From Gemmatimonadales bacterium (GTDB lineage: Bacteria > Gemmatimonadota > Gemmatimonadetes > Gemmatimonadales > GWC2-71-9), in NCBI GenBank assembly GCA_050183505.1, contig JBFXBG010000003.1, forward strand, positions 13,823 to 77,822: DNA of 64,000 nt, written 5' to 3'. Of this stretch, positions 718 to 59,913 are shown piece after piece; position 1 is the stretch's first letter, and each line of letters opens with the position of its first letter. A program made the translations under genes and the position numbers. The notes below the pieces were generated by a model, which was not told where the DNA came from, did not search any database, and saw only the letters and a list, made by a program, of their open reading frames with translations.

Positions 718-762
718 CTTCCGTCCGTCCTTCCGTCCTTCCGTCTTTCCGCCTTTCCACCC
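718..762. repeat. tandem 8-mer array CTTCCGTC/TTTCCGCC (complement of GGAAAGAC family), single arm
   Basis: Read directly: cttccgtc-cgtc-cttccgtc-cttccgtc-tttccgcc-tttccacc, upstream of the EamA gene. Confidence 0.8.
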
Positions 763-1787: not shown

Positions 1788-2342
1788 ATGGCCTTCATCC
1801 CCTACCTCCCGACGGACGCGATTCCCGAAGCCGACCGCGTCCCCGACAACGACCACATCCTGCGGATCCACGGGGTGCATTCGCGCGTCATGCGGCAGCA
1901 CTACGATCTGTATGTCGAGCTGATGCACCGGCCCGGGCCGTTGAGCCGGCTGGAACGGGAACTGGTGGGGGCCGCGGTCTCCCAGGCCAACGCGTGCCAC
2001 TACTGACTGGTCCACCACGGAGCGACGCTCCGGACGCTCCTCCGGGCGAGGGGCACCGAGGAAGACCTGCTGGACGGCCTCATCGGGAACCTGGCGGACG
2101 AGACGCCGCCGGCGGGGTTGAGCCCGCGGGAAACCGCCATTCTGGGTTACGCCCTCAAGCTCACGCGCACGCCGGGACGGATGACGGAAAACGACCTCGT
2201 CCCCTTGCGCCGGGCGGGCCTGGATGACCGTGCCATCCACGACCTGTGCGGGGTGACGGCCTACTTCGCCTTCGTCAATCGCATTGCCGATGGACTGGGC
2301 GTGGAACTGGAGGAGAGGTGGAGCGACGGCGGTGGGCGGTGA
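1788..2342 (+). CDS. AhpD/carboxymuconolactone-decarboxylase-family peroxidase-related protein with in-frame TGA at 2004..2006 (Sec candidate or nonsense)
   Basis: ORFs 1788..2006 and 2118..2342 are in the same frame, and no other stop lies between 2007 and 2117. Read-through gives ...SQANACHY-[TGA]-LVHHGATL...AYFAFVNRIADGLGVELE. This is the CxxC..H core and C-terminal signature of the CMD/AhpD-like family. Confidence 0.6.
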
Positions 2343-2346
2343 GCGT

Positions 2347-5073
2347 CTAGCTCACCGGCAGCCAGTAACTCACCTTCACCGCCAGGAAGTTGTCGCCGGA
2401 GGTCGAGAGGGAGCGGCCCAGGCCGCCCACTCCGGCGCGCCGGAACGGATCCTCCCGGCCGGACCGGTCCTGCTGCCAGACGAAGAAGAAGGTGCTGCCC
2501 GCCCGCCATTCCCACCGCAGAACCACGTTGCTCCTGAAGGACACGATGTTGAAATTCGGGTCGATCTGGAACGTGTCGGGGCCGTCGGTCACGGTGAGCG
2601 TCCCCGAGGCATCCTGACTGATGGTGCTCCCGCCGGTACCATAGCGGCGGAGCCGGTCCGTGCCGGCCGCGGTGAGTTCTCCCAGATGGTAGTACTGTCC
2701 GCTCGCCGCAAACGGCTCGGCGTAGGCCTCCAGCGAGAGATCCGGGGAAAGCGCGTAGTTCATCCGGATCCGGGCCGCGATCGTGGTGCGGCCGATGGTC
2801 CCGAACACATATCGGGTCCCGTAGGTCGAGGCGGGTCCGTTGGCTTCCTGGGAGACATACTGGCGGCGTTCCACCTCGCGCTCGAGCGAGGGCCGGATCG
2901 ACAGTTCCCAGCGGCTGCTGGGACGCACCGAGAGCTGGGCCCCGAGGTCGTAGGCCCAGCTGCCGAGTCCGTCCCACTCGTAGGCGGCATCGAGCTCCCA
3001 GCGGGTACTGGCGCTGAAGGGACTCGAGATTTCGGCGTCGACTCCGGCACTCGGCGCGCGCCGCATCAGCGGCCCACCTCGCGTGAGCCCGTCACTCAGG
3101 GCCGCCGCGCGCACCTCGAATCCCAGGCTCGCCTGCACGAAGTTGTGAAACGTGGCATTGGCGTCCATCCCGATCTCGCTGTACTGCCGGGTGCCGCCGA
3201 AGTTCCAGCCGCTGCTGCCGCCCAGGCGCACGTTGTATTCCCGAAAGAGCGGGCCGGGGGTGTTTTCCCGATAGCGCAGACTGGCATAGGTGTCGATGTC
3301 GTCCGCTCCGCCGAGCCGGCCGGCGTCGTTGATCTCGAACGCGGGCGATTCCGCCGAGCCCCCGAACTCGTACAGCCAGTGGCGGCCGGCGTTCTTGCTG
3401 AAATTCAGGGAACCGACCCAGCCGAGCAGCGATTCCCGGGTTGGATCATAGGTGGCGTAGTCCTGGTCGGGCCGCTGGAAGTAGTGCGCCGAAGAACGCT
3501 GGACCCGGGCAATGGCGCCGGTATCGCCGCGGATGTAGCTGAAACCCAGCGCACCCTGCAGGATGTAGTCCCCGCCGTTGAACCGGAGGTTCCAGTCGAG
3601 GCCGCCGCCGAAGGCCTGACGGCTGAACAGCCCGGCCAGCGGGGAGTCCCGCTCGAGACTGCGTTCGACCGCGGTCATGGTCAGCCCGACGGTCGAGGCC
3701 GAGGCGCCGACCTCCTGCTGCAACCGCACCACCCCGTACCCGGCAACGGGCGCCACCTTGGTGTCGGAGAAAACCGAGCCGGTGGTGTCATAGGTCCGGG
3801 CGAAGGCCTGGTCCGTCACCGCGGCCAGCGCCCCGACCGAAAGCCCGGATGGGAGCCGTCCGGTCAGTTTGGCGGCGCCCAGGATGGTCGCCGCCTTGGG
3901 CTGGTCCACGAAATCGCCGTCCGCGCTCCCCCGTGGCGGGGCGCCGATGCGCCGGGAGTAGAACCAGTTGGCCCCACCCCCGCGGAGCAGATTCGCCCCT
4001 TCGGTAAAGAACGGGCGGCGCTCGTCGAAGAACGTTTCGACCGCGCTCAGGTTCACCACCGCCGGGTCGGCCTCCACCTGGCCGAAGTCGGGATTCACCG
4101 TCCCGTCCAGCGTCAGGCTGGGGCCGAGCCCCATCTTGAGGTCCAGGCCGGCCCGGGCCTCGAGGTTGACTCCGTTGTCGAAGGGATCCCGGGGGTTGCG
4201 ATCCCCGGTGATGGTCGAGTTGGCGGCGGTATAGGGGAGCAACTCGATCCGTCGGCTGGATCGGATGCCCCGGATGCCGTCCAGCTGCGCGAACCGGGAC
4301 GCCCAGCCTGTCTCGTTCTTCGGGATCAGGACCCAGTAGTCATCCTCGTTCCGGCTCGGGATATACCGGTTGATGTTGATTCCCCAGGTCTGGGTCTCAC
4401 CGGCGTTGAAGCGCAGCTGGGAGAATGGGATTCTGATCTCCGCGGTCCAGCCGGCCGAGTCCTCGGCCGCCTTCGCCTGCCAGACGGGATCGAACGAGTA
4501 GTCCCGGCCGTGCTCGCTGTCGCCCGGATGGTAGTAATCCACCCTGACGCCGGTCGCGGTGACGCCGAAACTGTAGGCCGTCCGGCGATCGCGGTAGGTA
4601 TCGAAGGAGAAGATGATGCGCTCGGAATTCGCCGGGTTGTCCCGGCGGGTCACCTGCGCCAGGATCTCCGGGTTCTCCATCCGGGCGCCGATGTAGACGG
4701 CTTCCTTGTCGTACAGAATGGCAAAGCGGGTGGCGAGCGTCGCCGGTTCTCCCTCGCGCGGGTCCCTCTGGGTAAAGCCGGTGAACCACTCCGCGTGCGC
4801 CCAGGCGGAATCATCCAGTCTGCCGTCGACGTGGATCGGGGCCCCGGCCGGCTGGGCCTCGACTTCCTGGCCCGATATGGCCTGAGGCACGGCGACCGTC
4901 CCGGCGGCCTGAGCGGACAGGGACGCCGGCCCGAGCAGGCCGAGACAGAGCAGGACCGCCCGGCCGGACCGGGCTGGAAGTACTGTTCGAAGAATCAATG
5001 AAATCACCGCCAGAACTCGTAGGACAAACCGGACGTCCGGAGCGACCACGGCCATCCGCGCCGCCGGTTTCAT
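2347..5073 (-). CDS. DUF5916 / CBM9-like domain outer-membrane-associated protein
   Basis: 908-aa ORF. N-terminal signal-like LLCLGLLGPASLSAQAAG, then IHVDGRLDDSAWAHAEWFTGFTQRDPREGEP (CBM9-like) and a long beta-rich C-terminal region. The true start is probably internal (ATG at 5055 or TTG at 4998). Confidence 0.8.
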   Translation of the reverse strand: MKPAARMAVVAPDVRFVLRVLAVISLILRTVLPARSGRAVLLCLGLLGPASLSAQAAGTVAVPQAISGQEVEAQPAGAPIHVDGRLDDSAWAHAEWFTGFTQRDPREGEPATLATRFAILYDKEAVYIGARMENPEILAQVTRRDNPANSERIIFSFDTYRDRRTAYSFGVTATGVRVDYYHPGDSEHGRDYSFDPVWQAKAAEDSAGWTAEIRIPFSQLRFNAGETQTWGININRYIPSRNEDDYWVLIPKNETGWASRFAQLDGIRGIRSSRRIELLPYTAANSTITGDRNPRDPFDNGVNLEARAGLDLKMGLGPSLTLDGTVNPDFGQVEADPAVVNLSAVETFFDERRPFFTEGANLLRGGGANWFYSRRIGAPPRGSADGDFVDQPKAATILGAAKLTGRLPSGLSVGALAAVTDQAFARTYDTTGSVFSDTKVAPVAGYGVVRLQQEVGASASTVGLTMTAVERSLERDSPLAGLFSRQAFGGGLDWNLRFNGGDYILQGALGFSYIRGDTGAIARVQRSSAHYFQRPDQDYATYDPTRESLLGWVGSLNFSKNAGRHWLYEFGGSAESPAFEINDAGRLGGADDIDTYASLRYRENTPGPLFREYNVRLGGSSGWNFGGTRQYSEIGMDANATFHNFVQASLGFEVRAAALSDGLTRGGPLMRRAPSAGVDAEISSPFSASTRWELDAAYEWDGLGSWAYDLGAQLSVRPSSRWELSIRPSLEREVERRQYVSQEANGPASTYGTRYVFGTIGRTTIAARIRMNYALSPDLSLEAYAEPFAASGQYYHLGELTAAGTDRLRRYGTGGSTISQDASGTLTVTDGPDTFQIDPNFNIVSFRSNVVLRWEWRAGSTFFFVWQQDRSGREDPFRRAGVGGLGRSLSTSGDNFLAVKVSYWLPVS

Positions 5074-5296: not shown

Positions 5297-5878
5297 ATGA
5301 GCCCGCCTCTTCCCGGACAGCCGGGGCTGATGGCGGACATGCGCACGTGGAGCCGGGGCCGCTGGTGGTCCTGGCGCGCGCTGCTGCTCGCCTGGCTGGC
5401 CTGGACCGGCTGGCACTACCTGCGGGACCCGGAGTACGCCAGCGTTTTCCAGGGAATCGATTTCGGGGTCCACGAACTGGGGCACCTGGTCTTCGGCTTC
5501 GGAGGGGAATGGATCGGCGTCGCCGGCGGGAGCCTGGCCCAGGTGCTGCTCCCGCTCGCCGCCGGCGCCCTGTTCTGGTCGCAGCGCGACTACTTCGGCG
5601 CCGCCGTCTGCGGCGCCTGGGAGGCGTTCAGCCTGTTCGAGCTGTCGCGTTACGTGGCCGATGCCCGGGCCCAGGAGCTGGACCTGGTCAGCTTCAGCGA
5701 GACCGCGATCCACGACTGGAACTACCTCCTGTCCAGCGTGGGCCTGCTGCGGCAGGACGTGGCCATCGCCCACGGGATGCGCATCCTGGCGCTGCTCCTG
5801 CTGGCGGGGAGTCTGTGGTGGGGCGGGTGGCTGTGCCGGGAGATGAGGCGTGGAAGGACCGTGAACGGTGAACGGTGA
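5297..5878 (+). CDS. membrane protein with HExxH motif (putative metalloprotease-like)
   Basis: ATG at 5297 within ORF 5147..5878. Several hydrophobic segments and FGVHELGHLVFGF. The C-terminus (GRTVNGER) and the stop codon are encoded by the GTGAACG repeat array. Confidence 0.55.
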   Translation: MSPPLPGQPGLMADMRTWSRGRWWSWRALLLAWLAWTGWHYLRDPEYASVFQGIDFGVHELGHLVFGFGGEWIGVAGGSLAQVLLPLAAGALFWSQRDYFGAAVCGAWEAFSLFELSRYVADARAQELDLVSFSETAIHDWNYLLSSVGLLRQDVAIAHGMRILALLLLAGSLWWGGWLCREMRRGRTVNGER

Positions 5879-5953
5879 ACGGTGAACGGGACCGGGTCGT
5901 CCTCCGAGACATGGATGCTGGGCCCGTTCACTGTTTACCGTTTACCGTTCACG
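5861..5953. repeat. inverted heptamer arrays (GTGAACG)n ... (CGTTTAC/CGTTCAC)n
   Basis: Left arm gtgaacggtgaacggtgaacggtgaacggg, right arm cccgttcactgtttaccgtttaccgttcacgg, spacer about 31 nt. Lies between convergent genes and supplies both stop codons. Confidence 0.9.
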
Positions 5954-7589
5954 GTTCCCCGCTTTCGATCTTCAGCAGCTCCCGGTAGGCCGGCAGCGTC
6001 AGAAACTCCTCGAACTCCTTCGAGGTGATGAGCCGGTCGAAGATCTGCCGCGCCAGGTCGAACCGTCCGCCCCGATAGCGTTCGTCACCCACCAGACCCC
6101 GGATCCGTTCCAGTTCTTCGGCGGTGACGGCGTGATACAGTTCGGGCGTCACCACCCGGCCGTCGTCCAGCGTGGCCCCGTGCCGCACCCATTGCCAGAC
6201 CTGGCTGCGGGAAATCTCGGCGGTGGCCGCGTCTTCCATCAGGTTGAAGATGGGGACGCAGCCGATGCCGTTGAGCCACGACTCCAGGTACAGGAGCCCG
6301 ACGGTGATGTTATGCCGCAGGCCCTCCTCGGTGATCTTTCCTTCCGGCACCGTCAGCAGGTCGTCGGCGGTGACCTTTACGTCTTCCCGCATGACGCCGA
6401 GCTGATTGGGGCCGGGCATGCCGGCATCGAAGACCTTCCGGGCGATCTCGACCAGGGCGGGATGAGCGACCCAGGTTCCGTCGTGCCCGTCTTTCACTTC
6501 CCGCTCCTTGTCGGCGATCACCTTGCCGATGGCGGTGTCGTTGGCCGCCGGGTCGTTCTTGATCGGAATCTGGGCCGCCATGCCTCCCATCGCGTGCGCA
6601 CCCCGGCGGTGGCACGTCTTGATGACCAGCTGGGTATAGGACCGCAGGAAGTGCCGGTCCATGCCCACGGTGCCCCGGTCCGGAAGCGTGAACTGCGGAT
6701 GGTTCCGGAATTTCTTGATGAAGCTGAAGATGTAGTCCCACCGGCCGCAGTTGAGTCCGACGATGTGCTCTTTCAGCTCGAAGAGGATCTCGTCGAGTTC
6801 GAAGGTCGCCAGGATCGTCTCGATCAGGACCGTGGCCCGGATGGTGCCGACGGGCAGCTTGAGGGCGTCCTGGGCCGCGAGGAAGACGTCATTCCACAGG
6901 CGGGCCTCGAGATGGCTCTCCAGCTTGGGCAGGTAGTAGTACGGGCCGGTCCCCCGCGCCAGCAGTTGCCTGACGTTGTGGAAGAAGTAGAGGCCGAAAT
7001 CGAACAGACTGCCTGCGATCGGCTCGCCGTCGATATGCAGGTGTTCCTCGGACAGGTGCCAGCCGCGGGGACGGGCCATCAGCACGGCGACGGTGTCGTT
7101 CAACCGGTAGGATTTCCCTTCAGGCGAGACGAAGTCGATGGTCCCCGCGATGGCATCGCGCAGGTTGATCTGCCCCTGGACCTGGTTGTCCCAGGTCGGG
7201 GCGTTGGCATCCTCGAAATCGGCCATGAAGACGTTGGCGCCGCTGTTGAGCGCGTTGATGACCATCTTCCGGTCGACCGGGCCGGTGATCTCCACCCGCC
7301 GGTCCTGCAGATCGGCCGGCGCGGGCCGGACTTTCCACTCGGCCCGCCGGATGCCCGCCGTCTCGGGCAGGAAGTCGGGCCGCCAGGTTCCGTCGAGCTG
7401 GCGCTGGAGATCGTGCCGGCGGGCAAGCAGCGCGCGGCGGGTGGGTTCGAACCGCCGGTGCAGTGTGGCAAGAAAATGCAGCGCATCGGGTGTCAGAATA
7501 TCCGAGAAACCCGGCTGCAGCGGCCCCAGGATGTCGATGCCGCTCGCGGGTCTGGTCCTGGCTTTGGTTTTCGCTTTGGATGCTGCCAT
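5949..7589 (-). CDS. aceB: malate synthase A
   Basis: Strong family resemblance along the whole length ([61 protein letters not shown]). Start taken at the ATG at 7589 (MAASKAKTK...). Confidence 0.93.
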
Positions 7590-7622: not shown

Positions 7623-7756
7623 GTAAAGTAAACGGTTAACGGTAAACGGTGAACAGCACGGGGCCGCAGGTCGATCGGGATGGCGGGCGGCGGATTCGGG
7701 TTCACCGCTCACCGCGCGCCGTCCACTCCGCGCGGTTGTCGCCCGCCGTTTACTGG
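7623..7756. repeat. inverted heptamer arrays (NAACGGT)n ... degenerate (TTCACCG/CTCACCG)n
   Basis: gtaaagt aaacggt taacggt aaacggt gaacagc, then ttcaccg ctcaccg cgcgccg tccactc ... In the divergent aceB/sodC gap. Confidence 0.7.
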
Positions 7757-14976: not shown

Positions 14977-15701
14977 CCCGTCCACTGATCGGTGTCACGG
15001 GGACGATCCGTCGGTTCGAGTCGGCCGACCGGGCCAGCGTGAACGCGGCGTACCTGCGGGCCCTCGCGGCCGCGGGGGCGAACCCGGTCCTGCTGACCCC
15101 GGTCATCCCCACCAGTGACGCGGGCTCGGTGCTGCAGCGGATGCAGGGCCTGGTCATCACCGGCGGACACGACGTCGACCCGTGCTGGTACAACGCCCGG
15201 CCCTCACCCGCGCTGGGAGCGGTGGATCGGGCCCGGGACGCGTTTGATCTGGCGCTGTTCCGCACCGCCCGTTCACTCGGGCTCCCGGTCCTGGGGATTT
15301 GCCGGGGGTTGCAGGTCATCAACGTGGCCCTGGGCGGCACCCTCTGGCAGGACCTCCCCAGCGAAATGCCGGGGCCGGTCAAGCATGATCCGCCGGATAC
15401 CCCCCGGAACACCCGGGTTCACGGCATCCGGGTGGATCCCGCCAGCCGGCTCGCGGCGGCCCTGGGAAGCACCCGGTTCCGGACCAACTCCTTCCACCAC
15501 CAGGCCGTCCGGGAACTGGCCCCGGGCCTCATGGCCACGGCCTGGGCGGACGATGGTGTCATCGAAGGCGTCGAAGGACCCGCGAGCGACCCCTGGCTGC
15601 TCGCGGTTCAGTGGCATCCGGAAGAGTTCGTGGGGGAGCCGGAGTCGGAGGACCAGAGACTGTTTGTCGCTTTGGTGGAGGCAAGTGAACGAATTGGATG
15701 A
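14973..15701 (+). CDS. class I glutamine amidotransferase, gamma-glutamyl-GABA hydrolase (PuuD/peptidase C26)-like
   Basis: GLVITGGHDVDP, PVLGICRGLQVINVALGG and AVQWHPE motifs. The stop TGA lies in the first GGATGATTGG repeat unit. Confidence 0.85.
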   Translation: MTRPLIGVTGTIRRFESADRASVNAAYLRALAAAGANPVLLTPVIPTSDAGSVLQRMQGLVITGGHDVDPCWYNARPSPALGAVDRARDAFDLALFRTARSLGLPVLGICRGLQVINVALGGTLWQDLPSEMPGPVKHDPPDTPRNTRVHGIRVDPASRLAAALGSTRFRTNSFHHQAVRELAPGLMATAWADDGVIEGVEGPASDPWLLAVQWHPEEFVGEPESEDQRLFVALVEASERIG

Positions 15702-15807
15702 TTGGAGGATTTGTGATTGGATGATTGGGTGTAACCTCTGATACGCTTGAGGGTGACCAACCATCCGGGGCCCGACGGGCCCAATCATCCAATCACAAAT
15801 CATCCAA
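15691..15807. repeat. inverted GGATGATTGG-type arrays
   Basis: Left arm ttggatgattggaggatttgtgattggatgattggg. The reverse complement of the right arm is ttggatgatttgtgattggatgattggg, identical except for one 7-nt unit (TGGAGGA). Confidence 0.9.
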
Positions 15808-27459: not shown

Positions 27460-28278
27460 ATGCCGTCACGATCCCTCCAGGCGCTCGCGCTCGCTCTCTT
27501 TCTTGCTCCACCAGCTCTCGCGGCCCAGCAGCCGCTGGTGCAGCGCGAGCGCGCCGCCTTCGCTCGCTGGCTGCTGGCATCGGCCAATTCACCCTACGCG
27601 GCGATTGCCCTGGCCCGGGTTGGTGACGGCATTGCGCTGGGCCCGGCCGATGCCGATGTCCCGCTGGCGGCCGCCGGTCCCTGGCGGATCGCCGAGGCGC
27701 CGGGCGGCCTGATCCTGGAAGGGCGGTCCCTGCGGCGGACATTGCCGCGCTACCGGCTCACGACGGTTGGAGCCTACTCGTTCTTTCCCAGCGGCGAACG
27801 CGGGCGGACCAAGGTCACCGTATTCGGCCCGGTTCACGACGCGCACGAACCGGTCTATTTCGAATACGACAGCTCATTCGTGTTCATCGGGCCGCTCCTG
27901 CGGGACGATGCACCCGAACCGGTGCGGATCCTGGCGCTGGACGGGCTGGAGGTCGAAGCCACCCGCGTGGGCAGCGTCCTGGTGCCCGACGGGACCGCCG
28001 GCACCCGGCTCCGGGTCTACCGGGTTCCGGATCCCGGCACCGAAGAGTCCGAGCTCACCATCTACTTTCAGGATGCGACCAACGACGCGGGGACCTATCC
28101 GGCCGGCCGTTTCGTGAGCCTGATCCCGCTGCCCGACGGTCGCTACCGACTGGACTTCAACCGGGCCAGGAATCCGTTCTGCGCCTACAGCACAGTGTAT
28201 CCCTGCCCCGCCCCCTGGCCCGGCAACCGGCTCCAGCGGGGGATCGCGGTGGGGGAGAAGTATGAGGAGAAGGGCTGA
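27460..28278 (+). CDS. DUF1684 domain protein
   Basis: C-terminus FNRARNPFCAYSTVYPCPAPWPGNRL is the DUF1684 signature. Signal peptide MPSRSLQALALALFLAPPALAA. The stop TGA lies in the first CTGAGGA unit. Confidence 0.8.
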   Translation: MPSRSLQALALALFLAPPALAAQQPLVQRERAAFARWLLASANSPYAAIALARVGDGIALGPADADVPLAAAGPWRIAEAPGGLILEGRSLRRTLPRYRLTTVGAYSFFPSGERGRTKVTVFGPVHDAHEPVYFEYDSSFVFIGPLLRDDAPEPVRILALDGLEVEATRVGSVLVPDGTAGTRLRVYRVPDPGTEESELTIYFQDATNDAGTYPAGRFVSLIPLPDGRYRLDFNRARNPFCAYSTVYPCPAPWPGNRLQRGIAVGEKYEEKG

Positions 28279-28364
28279 GGACTGAGGACTGAGGACTGAG
28301 GACTGAGGACTGAGGGCTGAGGGCTGAGGACTGAGAGGTGAGACGTGAGAGGCAAGACGTGAGA
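28274..28364. repeat. 13-unit heptamer array (GCTGAGG, ACTGAGG x5, GCTGAGG x2, ACTGAGA, GGTGAGA, CGTGAGA, GGCAAGA, CGTGAGA), single arm
   Basis: Read directly. Spans from the DUF1684 stop to the TlpA-like start. Confidence 0.95.
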
Positions 28365-29567
28365 AGGCCGGTCGGGTGGTGGTTCGTCGTGGCGGGTGTG
28401 TTCCTGCTGCCCCCCGCCCCGCTGACGGGCCAGTCCGCCCTTGCGGGCCCCTGGCGCGCCGTGCTGGACCTGGCCGGCGGCCCACTGCAATTCTCCCTGC
28501 AGGTGCGGCAGGAAAACGGGCAGTACCGCGGGCGGCTGTGTAACGGGTCGCAGTGCGACGAACTGTCCCGGGTCGCCGTGCTGGGAGACTCGGTCCTGTT
28601 TGATATCGCGGACTACGATGCCCGCATCATGGCTCGCCGGAAGGGGGATTCCCTCGAGGGCGAGTACCGGAACGTCGGCAACCGGGGTCCCCGGGTGATT
28701 CCCTTCCGGGCGGCGCGGGGCCGCTGGCCGGTTGTCCCGGCACCCGGCTGGCTCGCCGGACGATGGGACGGCTGGATGCTGCTGGACGGCCAGACCAGCC
28801 CGCGGGTCTTCGAATTCCGCCGGACCGATGACGGACTGGAAGGCACCATGATTTCCAACACCGGAGACTACGGCAATTTCCGGGGCCACGCCGCGGCCGA
28901 CAGCTTTTCGATGGGCCACTTCGATGGGTCGTTCGTCTACATGGTGACCGGGCGGCTCGACGGCGACACCTTGCGCGGCATCTTCCACGCCGGCCTCCGG
29001 ACGCAGACCCGGTGGATCGCCGTCCGGAGCAGTGGAGCGCCGCATCTGAAGAACCCGGCCGAGATCACCCAGGCGGACACGACCGATGTCTTCCGGTTCA
29101 GCTTCCCCGACCTGAACGGCAACCTGGTGTCCGAGTCCGATCCACGGTTCAAGGGCAAGGTGGTGCTGGTGGATGTCTTCGGTTCCTGGTGCCCGACCTG
29201 CCACGACGCGGCGCCGGCCCTGGTGGATCTCTGGAACAAATTCCACGGGCGGGGACTGGAGATTGTGGGTCTGGCCTACGAGGTCACCGGCGACAGCGCG
29301 GTCGACGCCCGCCAGGTGCGCCGGTATCGTGACAAGTTCGGGATCCGGTTTCCCCTGCTCCTCGCCGGGATCAACGACACCGAAGCCGCCGCGGCCACCT
29401 TGCCGCAACTGGCCGGATTCACGTCGTTCCCCACGACCATCTTCATCGGACGGGACGGCAAGGTGAAACGGATCCACGCCGGTTTCTACGGTCCCGCCAC
29501 CGGAGCCCAGCACGAACGGCTGGTGAGGCAGATGGAGGATGAGGTGGAACGGCTGCTGGTGGAGTGA
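28338..29567 (+). CDS. TlpA/redoxin-family thiol:disulfide oxidoreductase with N-terminal extra domain
   Basis: VVLVDVFGSWCPTCHDAAP thioredoxin-fold motif. The start (GTG at 28338 or 28359) lies inside the heptamer array. Signal-like WWFVVAGVFLLPPAPLTG. Confidence 0.8.
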   Translation: MRRERQDVRRPVGWWFVVAGVFLLPPAPLTGQSALAGPWRAVLDLAGGPLQFSLQVRQENGQYRGRLCNGSQCDELSRVAVLGDSVLFDIADYDARIMARRKGDSLEGEYRNVGNRGPRVIPFRAARGRWPVVPAPGWLAGRWDGWMLLDGQTSPRVFEFRRTDDGLEGTMISNTGDYGNFRGHAAADSFSMGHFDGSFVYMVTGRLDGDTLRGIFHAGLRTQTRWIAVRSSGAPHLKNPAEITQADTTDVFRFSFPDLNGNLVSESDPRFKGKVVLVDVFGSWCPTCHDAAPALVDLWNKFHGRGLEIVGLAYEVTGDSAVDARQVRRYRDKFGIRFPLLLAGINDTEAAAATLPQLAGFTSFPTTIFIGRDGKVKRIHAGFYGPATGAQHERLVRQMEDEVERLLVE

Positions 29568-29576
29568 GGCGACTAG

Positions 29577-29715
29577 AAGACTGGATGATTGGGGATTGGA
29601 TGATTGGGGGGTGGTTTGAGGATCACCGGGCCTCGCCGGCCGCTGCCGAAGCCCTGGGCCACGGCCAATCATCCAATCTTCAAATCATCCAGTCCTCCAA
29701 TCCCCAATCATCCCA
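29577..29715. repeat. GATTGG-family hairpin element, copy A (arms plus conserved core)
   Basis: Left arm ctggatgattggggattggatgattgggggg. Core tttgaggatcaccgggcc...gccgctgccg.agccc. Right arm ccaatcatccaatcttcaaatcatccagtcctccaatccccaatcatcc. Confidence 0.9.
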
Positions 29716-35562: not shown

Positions 35563-35738
35563 GGATTGGAGGATTGGTGTTGGTGATTGGAGATTGGATG
35601 ATTGGTGATTGGATGATTGGGGGTGTTTTGAGGATCACCGGGCCCTGCCAGCCGCTGCCGTAGCCCAGGGGCGCGGCCAATCATCCAATCATCCAATCCC
35701 CAATCATCCAATCCTTCAATCCTCCAATCCTCCCTCTC
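35562..35738. repeat. GATTGG-family hairpin element, copy B
   Basis: Left arm has about 9 GGNGATT units, a core about 89 percent identical to copy A, and a right arm of CCAATCATCC/CCAATCC units. Fills the lpdA-stop to next-ATG gap exactly. Confidence 0.9.
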
Positions 35739-39770: not shown

Positions 39771-39951
39771 GAGAGAAGTGAGAGGTGAGAAGTGAGAAGT
39801 GAGAGGGATACCGGGTATTGATCGCAGGTATGGAATTCTGCCATCTCACGCATACCACGCATACAAGGGGAATCTACCCCGTCCGGCCCGGGTGGCCATA
39901 CCCCCGGGCCTCCTAACTTCTCGCTTCTCGCTTCCTCACTTGCCCTCCCCC
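39771..39951. repeat. inverted heptamer arrays (GAGAGAA GTGAGAG GTGAGAA GTGAGAA GTGAGAG) ... (ACTTCTC GCTTCTC GCTTCCT CACTTGC CCTCCCC)
   Basis: Read directly. About 100-nt spacer. In the divergent gap between the M20 peptidase and the TPR gene. Confidence 0.85.
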
Positions 39952-42771: not shown

Positions 42772-42925
42772 GCAGTAAGAAGTGAGAAGTAAGAAGGGGG
42801 TGGCAGTCCGCTCAGGCGGTATCTGCCGCCCCCTTCTCACTTCTCACTTCTCACTGCTCACTGCTCCCTGCTCACTTCTCACTGCTCACTGCTCACCGCT
42901 CCCATCCTCTCTCCCATCTTCTCAA
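42761..42925. repeat. inverted heptamer arrays (GTGAGCA GTAAGAA GTGAGAA GTAAGAA) ... 13 x (CTCACTT/CTCACTG/...) with nested GC hairpin
   Basis: Left arm 5 units, right arm about 13 units. Centre gggggtggcagtccgctcaggcggtatctgccgccccc is a nested stem-loop. Confidence 0.92.
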
Positions 42926-51870: not shown

Positions 51871-51940
51871 GAGAAGTGAGAAGTGAGAAGTGAGAAGGGA
51901 GAAGGGAGAAGGGAGAAGTGAGAAGTGAGAAGGAGGGGGG
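51869..51940. repeat. 10-unit heptamer array (GAGAGAA, GTGAGAA x3, GGGAGAA x3, GTGAGAA x2, GGAGGGG)
   Basis: Read directly. Starts in the accA stop codon. A degenerate complementary arm lies at about 52048..52091, abutting the PSP1 ATG. Confidence 0.92.
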
Positions 51941-58881: not shown

Positions 58882-58888
58882 TGGAAGG

Positions 58889-58945
58889 GCTGAGGACTGA
58901 GGACTGAGGACTGAGGGCTGAGCGGCTGAGGACTGAGGGCTGAGC
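58889..58945. repeat. 8-unit heptamer array (GCTGAGG, ACTGAGG x3, GCTGAGC, GCTGAGG, ACTGAGG, GCTGAGC)
   Basis: Read directly. One 1-nt phase slip at 58924. Confidence 0.9.
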
Positions 58946-59678: not shown

Positions 59679-59913
59679 GGGAGAGGTTGAGAGGTTGAAG
59701 AGTCGAGAAGGCGAGAAGTCGAGAAGTCGAGAAGGCCAGAAGTCGAGTGGTCACGGAATCCCGGTCCGGCTCCTTCACTCGCAAGAGGGAGCCGCTGACC
59801 GTCGGACTGCTCGACTCCTCGACCTCTCGACTTCTCGACCTCTCGACTTCACTACCTCCCGACTTCTCGACTTCTCTGCCTCCCGACTTCTCGACCTCTC
59901 GACCTCTCGACTC
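59678..59913. repeat. inverted 8-mer arrays (GAAGTCGA-type x8) ... (CTTCTCGA/CCTCTCGA-type x13)
   Basis: gaggttga gaggttga agagtcga gaaggcga gaagtcga gaagtcga ..., then tcctcgac ctctcgac ttctcgac ... Lies between convergent dsbA-like and CPBP genes. Confidence 0.92.

What the first reader, a model, noticed from the sequence alone, without database searches (positions are those of the whole stretch)
1788..2342. In-frame TGA replaces the second Cys of the CxxC motif in an AhpD/CMD-family gene: selenocysteine candidate
Seen in sequence: the ORFs 1788..2006 and 2118..2342 share one frame, and the only stop between them is the TGA at 2004..2006. Read-through gives SQANACHY-[TGA]-LVHHGATLRTLL...AYFAFVNRIADGLGVELE. 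In the carboxymuconolactone-decarboxylase/AhpD-like peroxidase-related family the redox centre is CxxC followed closely by His, so the TGA sits exactly at the resolving/peroxidatic Cys position. The 112 codons after the TGA are stop-free and keep family-typical residues, which argues against an old pseudogene. A stem-loop starts 11 nt after the TGA. It can be drawn as cggag-cgacg-ctccg (2018..2032) or alternatively as ggagcg-N10-cgctcc (2020..2040). That is the spacing expected for a bacterial SECIS element. Established knowledge: redox-motif Cys/Sec pairs are the standard signature of bacterial selenoproteins. To my recollection AhpD-like proteins are among the described prokaryotic selenoprotein families. 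Inference: this is either a genuine Sec codon or a very recent TGC-to-TGA nonsense mutation.
Basis: partly seen in the sequence, partly recalled or inferred. Interest (0 to 1): 0.7.

Follow-up and report, generated by a model that had tools for sequence, protein, structure and literature searches.

The report
AhpD-like selenoprotein gene, split by annotation

Summary
Window 1788..2342 (+) is one 184-codon gene with a single in-frame TGA at 2004-2006. With Cys in place of the TGA, it scores above the curated cutoff of TIGR01926 (peroxidase-related enzyme). Recent reviews list that model as the "AhpD-like, CxxU" selenoprotein family, known since 2005.

All 101 homologues fetched (21 species genomes, 80 metagenome contigs, at least five phyla) carry TGA at exactly this codon. 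More distant homologues carry Cys. The frame after the TGA is under purifying selection (median dN/dS 0.21).

A hairpin 11 nt after the TGA is kept in 96 % of stem positions. It shows strong synonymous-site constraint and a few compensatory changes. Its position matches that of the E. coli fdhF SECIS.

A 91.5 %-identical relative from independent sequencing runs has the same TGA and an identical hairpin. Its dN/dS is equal on both sides of the TGA (0.30 and 0.26). This excludes a sequencing error or a recent nonsense mutation.

Caveats: no selA/B/C/D gene lies in the 64 kb, which is uninformative. The window's hairpin loop (CGACG) is atypical for the family.

Verdict: a real but unremarkable selenoprotein gene, a new member of a known kind. 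NCBI annotates it as two hypothetical proteins.

The parts
1788..2342 (+). Complete AhpD-like (TIGR01926) selenoprotein gene: 184 codons including one Sec codon, plus terminal TGA at 2340-2342
   Evidence: Single frame, one internal TGA. TIGR01926 116.1 bits vs cutoff 81.8 and PF02627 42 bits vs 23. Homologues start MAF(I) at the same ATG. NCBI splits it into 72-aa and 74-aa hypothetical proteins.
1995..2006 (+). Redox motif C70-H71-Y72-U73 (TGC CAC TAC TGA)
   Evidence: Aligns with C-x-Y-C of PDB 3C1L, 6K40 and 2OYO and of the Cys forms P0006, P0009, P0010 and P0012. C70, Y72 and position 73 are invariant in A2.
2004..2006 (+). In-frame TGA read as selenocysteine (U73)
   Evidence: TGA, never TAA or TAG, at this aligned codon in 101 of 101 homologous loci, in 99 distinct contexts. 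The same TGA is in the 91.5 %-identical relatives L111 and L112 from independent runs.
1959..1961 (+). Glu58, proton-relay glutamate 12 residues before the first Cys
   Evidence: The spacing E58-C70-Y72-U73-H77 equals Glu36-Cys48-Tyr50-Cys51-His55 of PA0269 and Glu118-Cys130-His132-Cys133-His137 of MtAhpD. Invariant in A2.
2016..2018 (+). His77, proton-relay histidine (CxxUxxxH); its codon CAC also forms the base of the hairpin
   Evidence: for the relay. CAC in 22 of 22 in the first set. Invariant in A2.
2018..2032 (+). SECIS-like hairpin in the family register: stem C2018-G2032 to G2022-C2028, plus C2023-G2027, with apical G2024-A2025-C2026. It starts 11 nt after the TGA.
   Evidence: RNAalifold finds this stem independently. 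96.4 % of cells are paired in 96 sequences vs 29-52 % when slid, with 3 compensatory cells. Synonymous-site constraint is strong. Same distance from UGA as the E. coli fdhF SECIS apex. -9.8 kcal/mol. Identical in L111 and L112. The window keeps 5 of 6 family pairs and the invariant G (col 30 = G2024), but its loop CGACG is unique among 99.
2019..2040 (+). Alternative, mutually exclusive hairpin GGAGCG (2019-2024) / CGCUCC (2035-2040) with a 10-nt loop, specific to this lineage
   Evidence: -9.6 kcal/mol, nearly isoenergetic with the family-register hairpin. Which one dominates depends on the flanks folded. Its 3' arm is absent from other family members but identical in L111.

Best explanation
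Window 1788..2342 encodes one 184-residue AhpD-like thiol/selenol oxidoreductase of the TIGR01926 (COG2128) family. Its active-site motif is Cys70-His-Tyr-Sec73.

The TGA at 2004-2006 is decoded as selenocysteine. The ribosome reaches the UGA, and the hairpin that begins 11 nt downstream (2018-2032) acts as a bacterial SECIS. This hairpin lies inside the codons for H-G-A-T-L-R. It recruits SelB-GTP-Sec-tRNA(Sec), Sec is inserted, and translation continues to the ordinary TGA stop at 2340-2342.

In the protein, Sec73 occupies the place of the second, solvent-exposed Cys of the AhpD CxxC (Cys133 of M. tuberculosis AhpD). That position is served by the Glu58/Tyr72/His77 proton relay. Sec73 would be the nucleophile that attacks an oxidised partner, such as a peroxiredoxin sulfenate or disulfide, or possibly a peroxide directly. 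Cys70 would resolve the resulting selenenylsulfide.

Shown: gene unity, family membership, conservation of the TGA, purifying selection downstream of it, conservation of the hairpin, and the active-site alignment.

Inferred: SelB-dependent Sec insertion (machinery not seen), the identity of the redox partner, and which of two competing hairpins is the functional one in this lineage.
For: (1) One frame with a single internal TGA.

(2) TIGR01926 scores 116.1 bits against a cutoff of 81.8, and Pfam CMD is above threshold. The 2026 review lists 'AhpD-like protein, TIGR01926, CxxU' as a selenoprotein family. It was first reported in 2005 (27 sequences, CXXU), and 299 sequences were found in GOS.

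(3) TGA sits at the same aligned codon in 21 of 21 species genomes (Gemmatimonadota, Acidobacteriota, Desulfobacterales, Fimbriimonadia, Multivoradales) and in 80 of 80 metagenome loci. That is 101 of 101, never TAA or TAG. More than 60 database homologues are 102-125-aa C-terminal pieces, which is the truncation artefact of gene callers. Five are translated with W at the position.

(4) Cys forms (C-x-Y-C) exist and branch outside the TGA clade in which the window protein nests.

(5) The frame after the TGA is under purifying selection. Median dN/dS is 0.21 in 29 close pairs. Within the window's own lineage (window vs L111) it is 0.26 downstream and 0.30 upstream. All 30 post-TGA invariant columns of A2 are kept in the window protein.

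(6) The hairpin is 96.4 % paired in 96 distinct sequences against 29-52 % in slid registers. Pair 26-36 shows GC, GU, AU and CG. RNAalifold finds the same stem.

(7) Stem codons show synonymous constraint, while the loop Gly codon uses all four third bases:
- Arg is CGT in 20 of 22, against a 7 % background.
- Leu is CTC or CTT in 22 of 22, against 38 %.
- Gly is GGA or GGG in 21 of 21, against 44 %.
- Ala is GCG in 18 of 18, against 37 %.

(8) L085 and L106 carry GCAGGUCUGC at nt 19-28 from the U of UGA. This is the same 10-mer at the same distance as in the E. coli fdhF SECIS.

(9) L111 and L112, from independent runs DRR333436 and DRR333437, differ from the window at 47 of 555 nt. They have the same TGA and no change in 1994-2055.

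(10) TGA is the normal stop of 19 of 26 supported genes in the window and of this gene itself, so the genetic code is standard.

(11) The E58-C70-Y72-U73-H77 spacing equals the AhpD proton relay. In MtAhpD the second Cys is the one that cross-links to AhpC.
Against: No tRNA-Sec, SelA, SelB or SelD was found in the 64-kb window or in 424 kb of fetched loci. This is expected for so small a sample, but it means the Sec machinery of this genome is unverified.

No Rfam family matches the element, even at E <= 10. Folding energy is not better than shuffled sequence.

The hairpin is supported mainly by conservation. Only one of six pairs shows changes on both sides, and it overlaps a conserved peptide.

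Two of three Cys-form controls (L025, L026) still have a similar hairpin, so the hairpin alone does not discriminate Sec from Cys forms.

The window's apical loop CGACG is unique among 99 distinct sequences. It lacks the GG found in 98 of them, and the bottom A-U pair is lost.

The substitution-free stretch shared with L111 is significant only as an a-priori block (P = 0.0036). A run that long somewhere in the gene arises in 14 % of permutations.

No redox partner gene is conserved next to the gene.
Confidence: 0.9

Rival explanations
1. Relic gene. The lineage inherited a TGA-containing AhpD-like gene, but the SECIS has degenerated or the Sec machinery has been lost. Translation would then stop at 2006 and yield a useless 72-residue peptide, making this an incipient pseudogene.
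For: The window's loop CGACG is the only one of 99 without the conserved GG, and the basal A-U pair is lost. No Sec machinery is seen in the window. The first Gly of the loop is replaced by Thr, a residue no other TGA form has.
Against: Between the window and L111 (8.5 % nucleotide divergence), the post-TGA part has dN/dS 0.26, the same as the pre-TGA part at 0.30. There is no frameshift or stop. The variant hairpin is identical in both and thermodynamically at least as stable as the family consensus, at -9.8 vs -9.3...: -9.8 vs -7.3 kcal/mol. The invariant loop G (col 30) is kept. L045, another TGA form, has the same C-GNC-G architecture.
Confidence: 0.05
2. Recent nonsense mutation (TGC to TGA) or sequencing/assembly error in a Cys-type gene.
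For: A single base distinguishes TGA from TGC. Cys forms of the family exist. L110, the second assembly with the identical sequence, is probably built from the same reads and is not independent.
Against: TGA is present in 101 of 101 homologues. The window protein nests inside the TGA clade. L111 and L112, from independent runs and diverged at 47 sites, have the same TGA.
Confidence: 0.01
3. Two separate small genes, as in the NCBI annotation (72 aa at 1788-2006 and 74 aa at 2118-2342).
For: This is how the source MAG is annotated.
Against: The 'intergenic' stretch 2007-2117 encodes the family's catalytic His77 and helix. It is conserved in frame across all homologues and has coding-type substitution patterns. 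Full-length Cys homologues and crystal structures span both halves.
Confidence: 0.01
4. UGA is read through without selenocysteine, for example by near-cognate insertion of Cys or Trp, or by a reassigned TGA as in genetic codes 4 and 25.
For: Some public gene calls translate the codon as W (P0001-P0005). Sec insertion itself was not observed.
Against: TGA terminates 19 of 26 supported genes in the window, including this one. The aligned residue in non-TGA homologues is Cys, not Trp or Gly. A conserved hairpin at the fdhF-SECIS distance with RNA-level constraint is what SelB-dependent decoding requires and what simple leakiness does not. The family is an accepted selenoprotein family.
Confidence: 0.03

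Closest known systems
AhpD-like selenoprotein family (COG2128 / TIGR01926 'peroxidase-related enzyme', CxxU). Zhang, Fomenko & Gladyshev 2005 (PMC1088965). 'AhpD-like 1' in the GOS analysis (PMC2398784). Listed in the 2022 and 2026 reviews (PMC9312934, PMC13188914).
   Same: Same HMM family, above cutoff. Same CxxU motif with Sec at the second Cys. A hairpin with a G in the apical loop a few nt after the UGA. Cys homologues are widespread.
   Different: Nothing essential. This copy is from a soil/groundwater-type Gemmatimonadales MAG rather than marine plankton. It is unannotated (split in two), and its apical loop is CGACG instead of the clade's CGGGN.
Mycobacterium tuberculosis AhpD (TIGR00777; Cys130-Ser-His-Cys133, Glu118/His137 proton relay)
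   Same: Same two-helix active-site motif and residue spacing (E58, C70, U73, H77). Sec sits at the position of Cys133, the exposed nucleophile that cross-links to AhpC Cys61.
   Different: Not an orthologue: TIGR00777 scores 18 bits against a cutoff of 192. The motif lies in the N-terminal half rather than the C-terminal. Position x2 is Tyr, not His. There is no adjacent ahpC. It has Sec instead of Cys.
Solved Cys-form homologues: 3C1L (Mlr4105), 6K40 (Deinococcus radiodurans AhpD), 2OYO, 2PFX, 2PRR
   Same: E-values 1e-25 to 1e-17 over nearly the full length. C-x-Y-C aligns with C-H-Y-U.
   Different: All have Cys, none Sec. No selenoprotein member of the family has a solved structure among the hits.
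Escherichia coli fdhF SECIS (hairpin after UGA140, apical GGUC loop)
   Same: The hairpin lies inside the coding sequence immediately after the UGA. The family's apex is at nt 20-25 from the U of UGA, as in fdhF. L085 and L106 have the identical GCAGGUCUGC at nt 19-28.
   Different: The family stem is shorter (6 bp). The window's loop has A-C where fdhF and the family have G-G. No bulged U is evident. SelB binding is untested.
NF041238 AhpD-related CFYUT (seleno)protein ('hypothetical protein 1' of the Sargasso Sea)
   Same: CMD/AhpD-type domain with a CxxU motif.
   Different: Different family: 48 bits against a cutoff of 175. Only the C-terminal domain of that 357-position model is matched.

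Membership tests
AhpD-like selenoprotein family (TIGR01926 / COG2128, CxxU) | Protein matches the TIGR01926 model above its curated cutoff | tested here: met
   116.1 bits vs 81.8, covering residues 25-173 of 184
AhpD-like selenoprotein family (TIGR01926 / COG2128, CxxU) | In-frame TGA aligned with the second Cys of the CxxC of Cys-containing homologues (CxxU) | tested here: met
   C70-H-Y-TGA. Cys in P0006, P0009, P0010 and P0012 and in PDB 3C1L, 6K40 and 2OYO. TGA in 101 of 101 close homologues.
AhpD-like selenoprotein family (TIGR01926 / COG2128, CxxU) | Sequence downstream of the TGA is conserved as protein-coding | tested here: met
   Median dN/dS 0.21 in 29 pairs. 0.26 for window vs L111.
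AhpD-like selenoprotein family (TIGR01926 / COG2128, CxxU) | Bacterial SECIS-type stem-loop shortly after the UGA with a G in the apical loop | tested here: met
   Stem 2018-2032, 11 nt after the UGA. Loop G2024 corresponds to an invariant column. 96.4 % paired across 96 sequences with RNA-level codon constraint. The window's loop is atypical (CGACG).
AhpD-like selenoprotein family (TIGR01926 / COG2128, CxxU) | Genome encodes the Sec-decoding machinery (selA, selB, selC, selD) | not testable with these tools
   None in the 64-kb window or in 424 kb of fetched loci. The rest of the MAG could not be reached.
AhpD-like selenoprotein family (TIGR01926 / COG2128, CxxU) | Selenium actually incorporated at the UGA | not testable with these tools
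   Needs 75Se labelling or mass spectrometry
AhpD sensu stricto (M. tuberculosis type, TIGR00777) | Matches the TIGR00777 model above cutoff | tested here: not met
   18.4 bits vs 191.95
AhpD sensu stricto (M. tuberculosis type, TIGR00777) | Proton-relay residues Glu...Cys-x-x-Cys-x3-His | tested here: met
   E58, C70, U73 and H77 with the same spacing as PA0269 and MtAhpD. Invariant in A2.
AhpD sensu stricto (M. tuberculosis type, TIGR00777) | Genetic linkage to ahpC, or demonstrated AhpC reduction | tested here: not met
   No peroxiredoxin next to the gene in the window. No conserved neighbour in about 100 loci. Activity was not testable.
Carboxymuconolactone decarboxylase superfamily (Pfam PF02627 CMD) | Pfam model above gathering score | tested here: met
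   42 bits vs 23
NF041238 AhpD-related CFYUT selenoprotein | Model above cutoff | tested here: not met
   48.4 bits vs 175
E. coli fdhF-type SECIS | Stem-loop within the ORF, with the apex about 19-28 nt from the U of UGA | tested here: met
   The fdhF apex and the family apex coincide. L085 and L106 have the identical 10-mer.
E. coli fdhF-type SECIS | Apical loop G-G-U-C (G23/U24 contacts with SelB; from established knowledge) | tested here: not met
   The window has A-C-G-C at nt 22-25. The family consensus has G-G-N-C.
Rfam-curated RNA families | Covariance-model match | tested here: not met
   No hit at gathering score over the window, or at E <= 10 over 1700-2400

The most novel reading that the evidence does not exclude
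This Gemmatimonadales lineage decodes UGA-Sec with a SECIS whose apical loop (C-GAC-G) lacks the GG(U) that 98 of 99 family members share and that E. coli fdhF also has. Alternatively it uses a lineage-specific second hairpin (2019-2024 / 2035-2040) created by substitutions. Either would point to a shifted SelB-SECIS recognition rule in this lineage. Because the family's SECIS lies inside the codons for the catalytic helix (HHGAGLR), it would also be a clean natural case of RNA and protein constraints co-evolving.
Probability: 0.25. Interest if true: 0.35.

Novelty: new member of a known kind. Interest (0 to 1): 0.2.

Why it matters
There are three practical consequences.

First, the gene should be annotated as one selenoprotein with transl_except Sec at 2004-2006. 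It is currently two 'hypothetical proteins'. The same error affects many of its homologues in public collections, which appear as roughly 105-aa fragments or with W at the Sec position.

Second, a TGA kept at this codon in at least 14 Gemmatimonadota species genomes implies that Sec decoding is active in that phylum. I found no mention of this in the literature I could search.

Third, the roughly 100 aligned TGA contexts give a well-defined, family-specific SECIS. It has coding-embedded constraint, a few compensatory changes and natural loop variants. It could be used to improve bacterial SECIS models. It does not change how selenoproteins or AhpD enzymes are understood.

Tried and rejected
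- Rfam scans at gathering score and at E <= 10 gave no hit.
- Single-sequence folding z-scores are uninformative in this GC-rich sequence.
- Cys-form homologues were tried as a negative control for the hairpin, with a mixed result. P0009 lost it, while P0006 and P0012 keep it. They are probably recent Sec-to-Cys conversions, because Sec forms with the P0012-type N-terminus exist. I therefore relied on synonymous-site statistics instead.
- The search for Sec machinery found nothing. It used ARAGORN on the window, NCBIfam scans of 40 window ORFs, and tblastn of E. coli SelA, SelB and SelD against the window and all loci. This says nothing about the whole genome.
- A scan for a second selenoprotein gene in the window (coding-like frames on both sides of a TGA) found only this gene plus two ordinary gene ends.
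- A search for conserved neighbours as a clue to the redox partner gave only antisense shadow ORFs and small groups of 7 loci or fewer.
- A literature search for Sec use in Gemmatimonadota/Gemmatimonadetes found nothing specific.
- L110 was considered as independent confirmation and rejected, because it is 100 % identical over 5 kb and probably built from the same reads.
- The 62-nt substitution-free run shared with L111 was considered as proof of selection on the variant SECIS. It is only suggestive, since the permutation P for the longest run is 0.14.
- The promoter/terminator scan of 1550-2450 found nothing.

Full report
**Observation**

The sequence is as described. An ATG at 1788 opens a frame that runs to a TGA at 2340-2342. 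It has a single internal stop, the TGA at 2004-2006. The translation reads ...VSQANACHY-TGA-LVHHGATLRTLL...AYFAFVNRIADGLGVELEERWSDGGGR.

There are 111 sense codons after the internal TGA.

The hairpin CGGAG-CGACG-CUCCG at 2018-2032 starts 11 nt after the TGA. The two hairpins are nearly isoenergetic, at -9.8 and -9.6 kcal/mol.

A 111-codon open stretch is common in 68 % GC DNA. The region also does not fold better than shuffled sequence (z = -0.3, +0.8 and -0.2).

**Family**

With Cys substituted for the TGA, the protein scores 116.1 bits on TIGR01926 'peroxidase-related enzyme' (cutoff 81.8). It scores 42 bits on Pfam CMD (cutoff 23). It falls far below the cutoffs of AhpD proper (TIGR00777) and of NF041238.

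The nearest solved structures are 3C1L, 6K40 (Deinococcus radiodurans AhpD), 2OYO, 2PFX and 2PRR. All have C-x-Y-C aligned with C70-H-Y-TGA.

The spacing E58-C70-Y72-U73-H77 reproduces the AhpD proton relay. That relay is Glu36-Cys48-Tyr50-Cys51-His55 in PA0269 and Glu118-Cys130-His132-Cys133-His137 in M. tuberculosis AhpD (PMC3141380). In MtAhpD the second Cys (Cys133) is exposed and forms the cross-link with AhpC Cys61 (PMC6626918). Sec therefore sits at the attacking-nucleophile position.

**Is the TGA a Sec codon?**

The decisive evidence is comparative.

- A scan of one genome per species returned 21 homologous loci at 51-61 % identity. They come from Gemmatimonadota (the majority), Acidobacteriota, Desulfobacterales, Fimbriimonadia and Multivoradales. 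All 21 have TGA at the aligned codon.
- A metagenome scan added 80 loci, and all 80 have TGA there. In total that is 101 of 101, in 99 distinct sequence contexts. None has TAA or TAG.
- In the protein collection, more than 60 of the best 120 hits are 102-125-aa fragments that cover only the part after the TGA. Five 'full-length' entries carry W at the position, meaning a gene caller read TGA as Trp.
- True Cys forms exist (P0006, P0009, P0010, P0012 and more distant ones). In a distance tree they branch outside the clade in which TGA is the rule, and the window protein nests inside that clade.
- The frame downstream of the TGA is under purifying selection, with median dN/dS 0.21 over 29 closely related pairs.
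- TGA is the ordinary terminator of 19 of 26 family-supported genes in the window and of this gene itself. The genetic code is therefore standard.

**The window's own lineage**

The exact 72-aa N-terminal product is found in an NCBI MAG named 'Gemmatimonadales bacterium'. There the gene is annotated as two hypothetical proteins, AB7I33_06345 (72 aa) and AB7I33_06340 (74 aa). That contig (L110) is 100 % identical to the window and so is not independent.

The 90 % clusters, however, contained Logan members from two other sequencing runs, DRR333436 and DRR333437. Their contigs (L111, L112) carry a relative that differs at 47 of 555 nt. It has the same TGA. dN/dS is 0.30 before the TGA and 0.26 after it. 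There is no substitution at all in window 1994-2055. That stretch holds the motif, the hairpin with its unusual loop, and the 3' arm of the alternative hairpin.

As an a-priori block, this stretch has P = 0.0036. A run of that length somewhere in the gene occurs in 14 % of permutations, so I treat it as supportive only. Together these results exclude a sequencing error and a recent nonsense mutation. They make a decaying relic unlikely.

**The RNA element**

In 96 distinct sequences, a 6-bp stem (alignment columns 23-28 / 34-39) starts 10-11 nt after the TGA. Its consensus is ACGGAG-CGGGN-CUCCGU. It is paired in 96.4 % of cells against 29-52 % in slid registers. Pair 26-36 shows GC (87), GU (4), AU (2) and CG (1), and no shuffle reaches the observed covariation. 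RNAalifold predicts the same stem.

The stem overlaps the conserved peptide HHGAGLR, so I tested synonymous sites:

- Arg +9 is CGT in 20 of 22, against a background of 7 % in the same genes.
- Leu +8 is CTC or CTT in 22 of 22, against 38 %.
- Gly +5 is GGA or GGG in 21 of 21, against 44 %.
- Ala +6 is GCG in 18 of 18, against 37 %.
- The loop Gly +7 uses all four third bases.

The sequences are related, so the nominal P-values overstate independence. Even so, the pattern holds in the 42-43 % GC Desulfobacterales genomes.

Structural variants keep a hairpin in other ways:

- L038: G-C changed to C-G.
- L066 and L067: G-C changed to A-U.
- L021 and L091: a register-shifted stem.
- L085, L094 and L106: an 8-bp stem with a GGUC loop.

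The last type carries GCAGGUCUGC at nt 19-28 from the U of UGA. This is the same 10-mer at the same distance as in the E. coli fdhF SECIS, which I read from NC_000913.3.

There are caveats. Covariation is thin, with one pair of six showing changes on both sides. Rfam has no match. Two of three Cys-form controls still carry a similar hairpin. That is most simply explained by recent Sec-to-Cys replacement, because TGA forms with the same N-terminal architecture as P0012 exist.

The window deviates from the family. It keeps five of the six pairs and the invariant loop G (G2024). But its loop is CGACG, unique among 99, where 98 have GG at the next two positions. The basal A-U pair is also lost. 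L045 (CGGCG) shares the same 'extra C-G pair plus G-N-C triloop' architecture.

**What could not be shown**

No tRNA, SelA, SelB or SelD is encoded in the 64-kb window or in the 424 kb of fetched loci. The rest of the genome was out of reach.

No other selenoprotein candidate is in the window. No neighbour gene is conserved that would name the redox partner. The window gene lies between an EamA-type transporter and a convergent DUF5916 gene whose stop is 4 nt from its own.

**Comparison and verdict**

'AhpD-like protein' with a CxxU motif was reported as a new selenoprotein family from the Sargasso Sea in 2005 (27 sequences, COG2128; PMC1088965). It was one of the most abundant families in GOS (299 sequences; PMC2398784). 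Recent reviews list it as TIGR01926 / CxxU (PMC9312934 and PMC13188914).

The window gene meets every sequence-level criterion of that family. It is a new, mis-annotated member of a known kind, from a Gemmatimonadales MAG.

The only mildly novel aspect is the lineage-specific SECIS loop variant. Interest is low (0.2).

Noticed in passing
window 720-755, 1676-1767, 5861-5889, 5924-5961, 7628-7654, 15693-15728, 15781-15807, 28271-28335, 29665-29713, 35564-35620, 35677-35733, 39773-39804, 42836-42901, 51871-51932, 58886-58944, 59701-59747, 59805-59912: Almost every intergenic region of the window carries a tandem array of a 7-8-nt unit, such as GTCTCCC, GTGAACG, AGGACTG, GAGAAGT or CCAATCAT, with up to 13 copies. 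There are 18 arrays, or 2.8 per 10 kb. In 127 kb of related genome loci the rate is 0.16 per 10 kb. Several occur as inverted pairs of arrays about 30-60 nt apart (5861/5924, 15693/15781, 35564/35677, 59701/59805). The array (GTCTCCC)x9.7 ends 28 nt before the ATG of the selenoprotein gene. The 91.5 %-identical relative L111 has a different unit (CTTCTCA-like) at the same place, so the arrays evolve fast. Their function is unknown.
   Followed up: partly
L026 1501-2046 and flanks (Planctomycetota MAG GCA_043813895.1): The Cys-form homologue P0012 still carries the SECIS-like hairpin (ACGGAGCGUCGCUCCGU) after its TGC. It lies next to a PF11823 Se/S-carrier gene and a class-V aminotransferase (cysteine desulfurase or selenocysteine lyase type). 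This looks like a recent Sec-to-Cys conversion in a selenium-handling neighbourhood.
   Followed up: partly
P0001-P0005 and more than 60 fragments among P0013-P0120 (public protein collection): Homologues of this selenoprotein are systematically mis-predicted in public collections. Many appear as 102-125-aa C-terminal fragments. Five are full length with Trp at the Sec position, because TGA was read with an alternative code. The source MAG's NCBI annotation splits the window gene into AB7I33_06345 and AB7I33_06340.
   Followed up: partly
P0007, P0008, P0011, P0021 (homologues nested in or next to the TGA clade): Some close homologues have a degenerate redox motif: SxxC, CxxS or CxxL instead of CxxU/CxxC. 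This suggests single-thiol or non-redox derivatives of the family.
   Followed up: no
L085, L106 (and L094) just after their TGA: These metagenomic members have an extended 8-bp hairpin. Its apex, GCAGGUCUGC, is identical in sequence and in distance from the UGA to the E. coli fdhF SECIS apex, although the protein families are unrelated.
   Followed up: yes
window 28335-29567 (+): A 410-aa ResA/TlpA-like thiol:disulfide oxidoreductase has a weak match (27.5 bits, cutoff 300) to the WAxxUGC selenoprotein family. Here it is an uninterrupted Cys form with the motif W-C-P-T-C.
   Followed up: yes
window 2340-2349: The selenoprotein gene and the convergent 908-aa DUF5916 gene (2347-5073, minus strand) end only 4 nt apart. 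No terminator-like hairpin lies between them.
   Followed up: no
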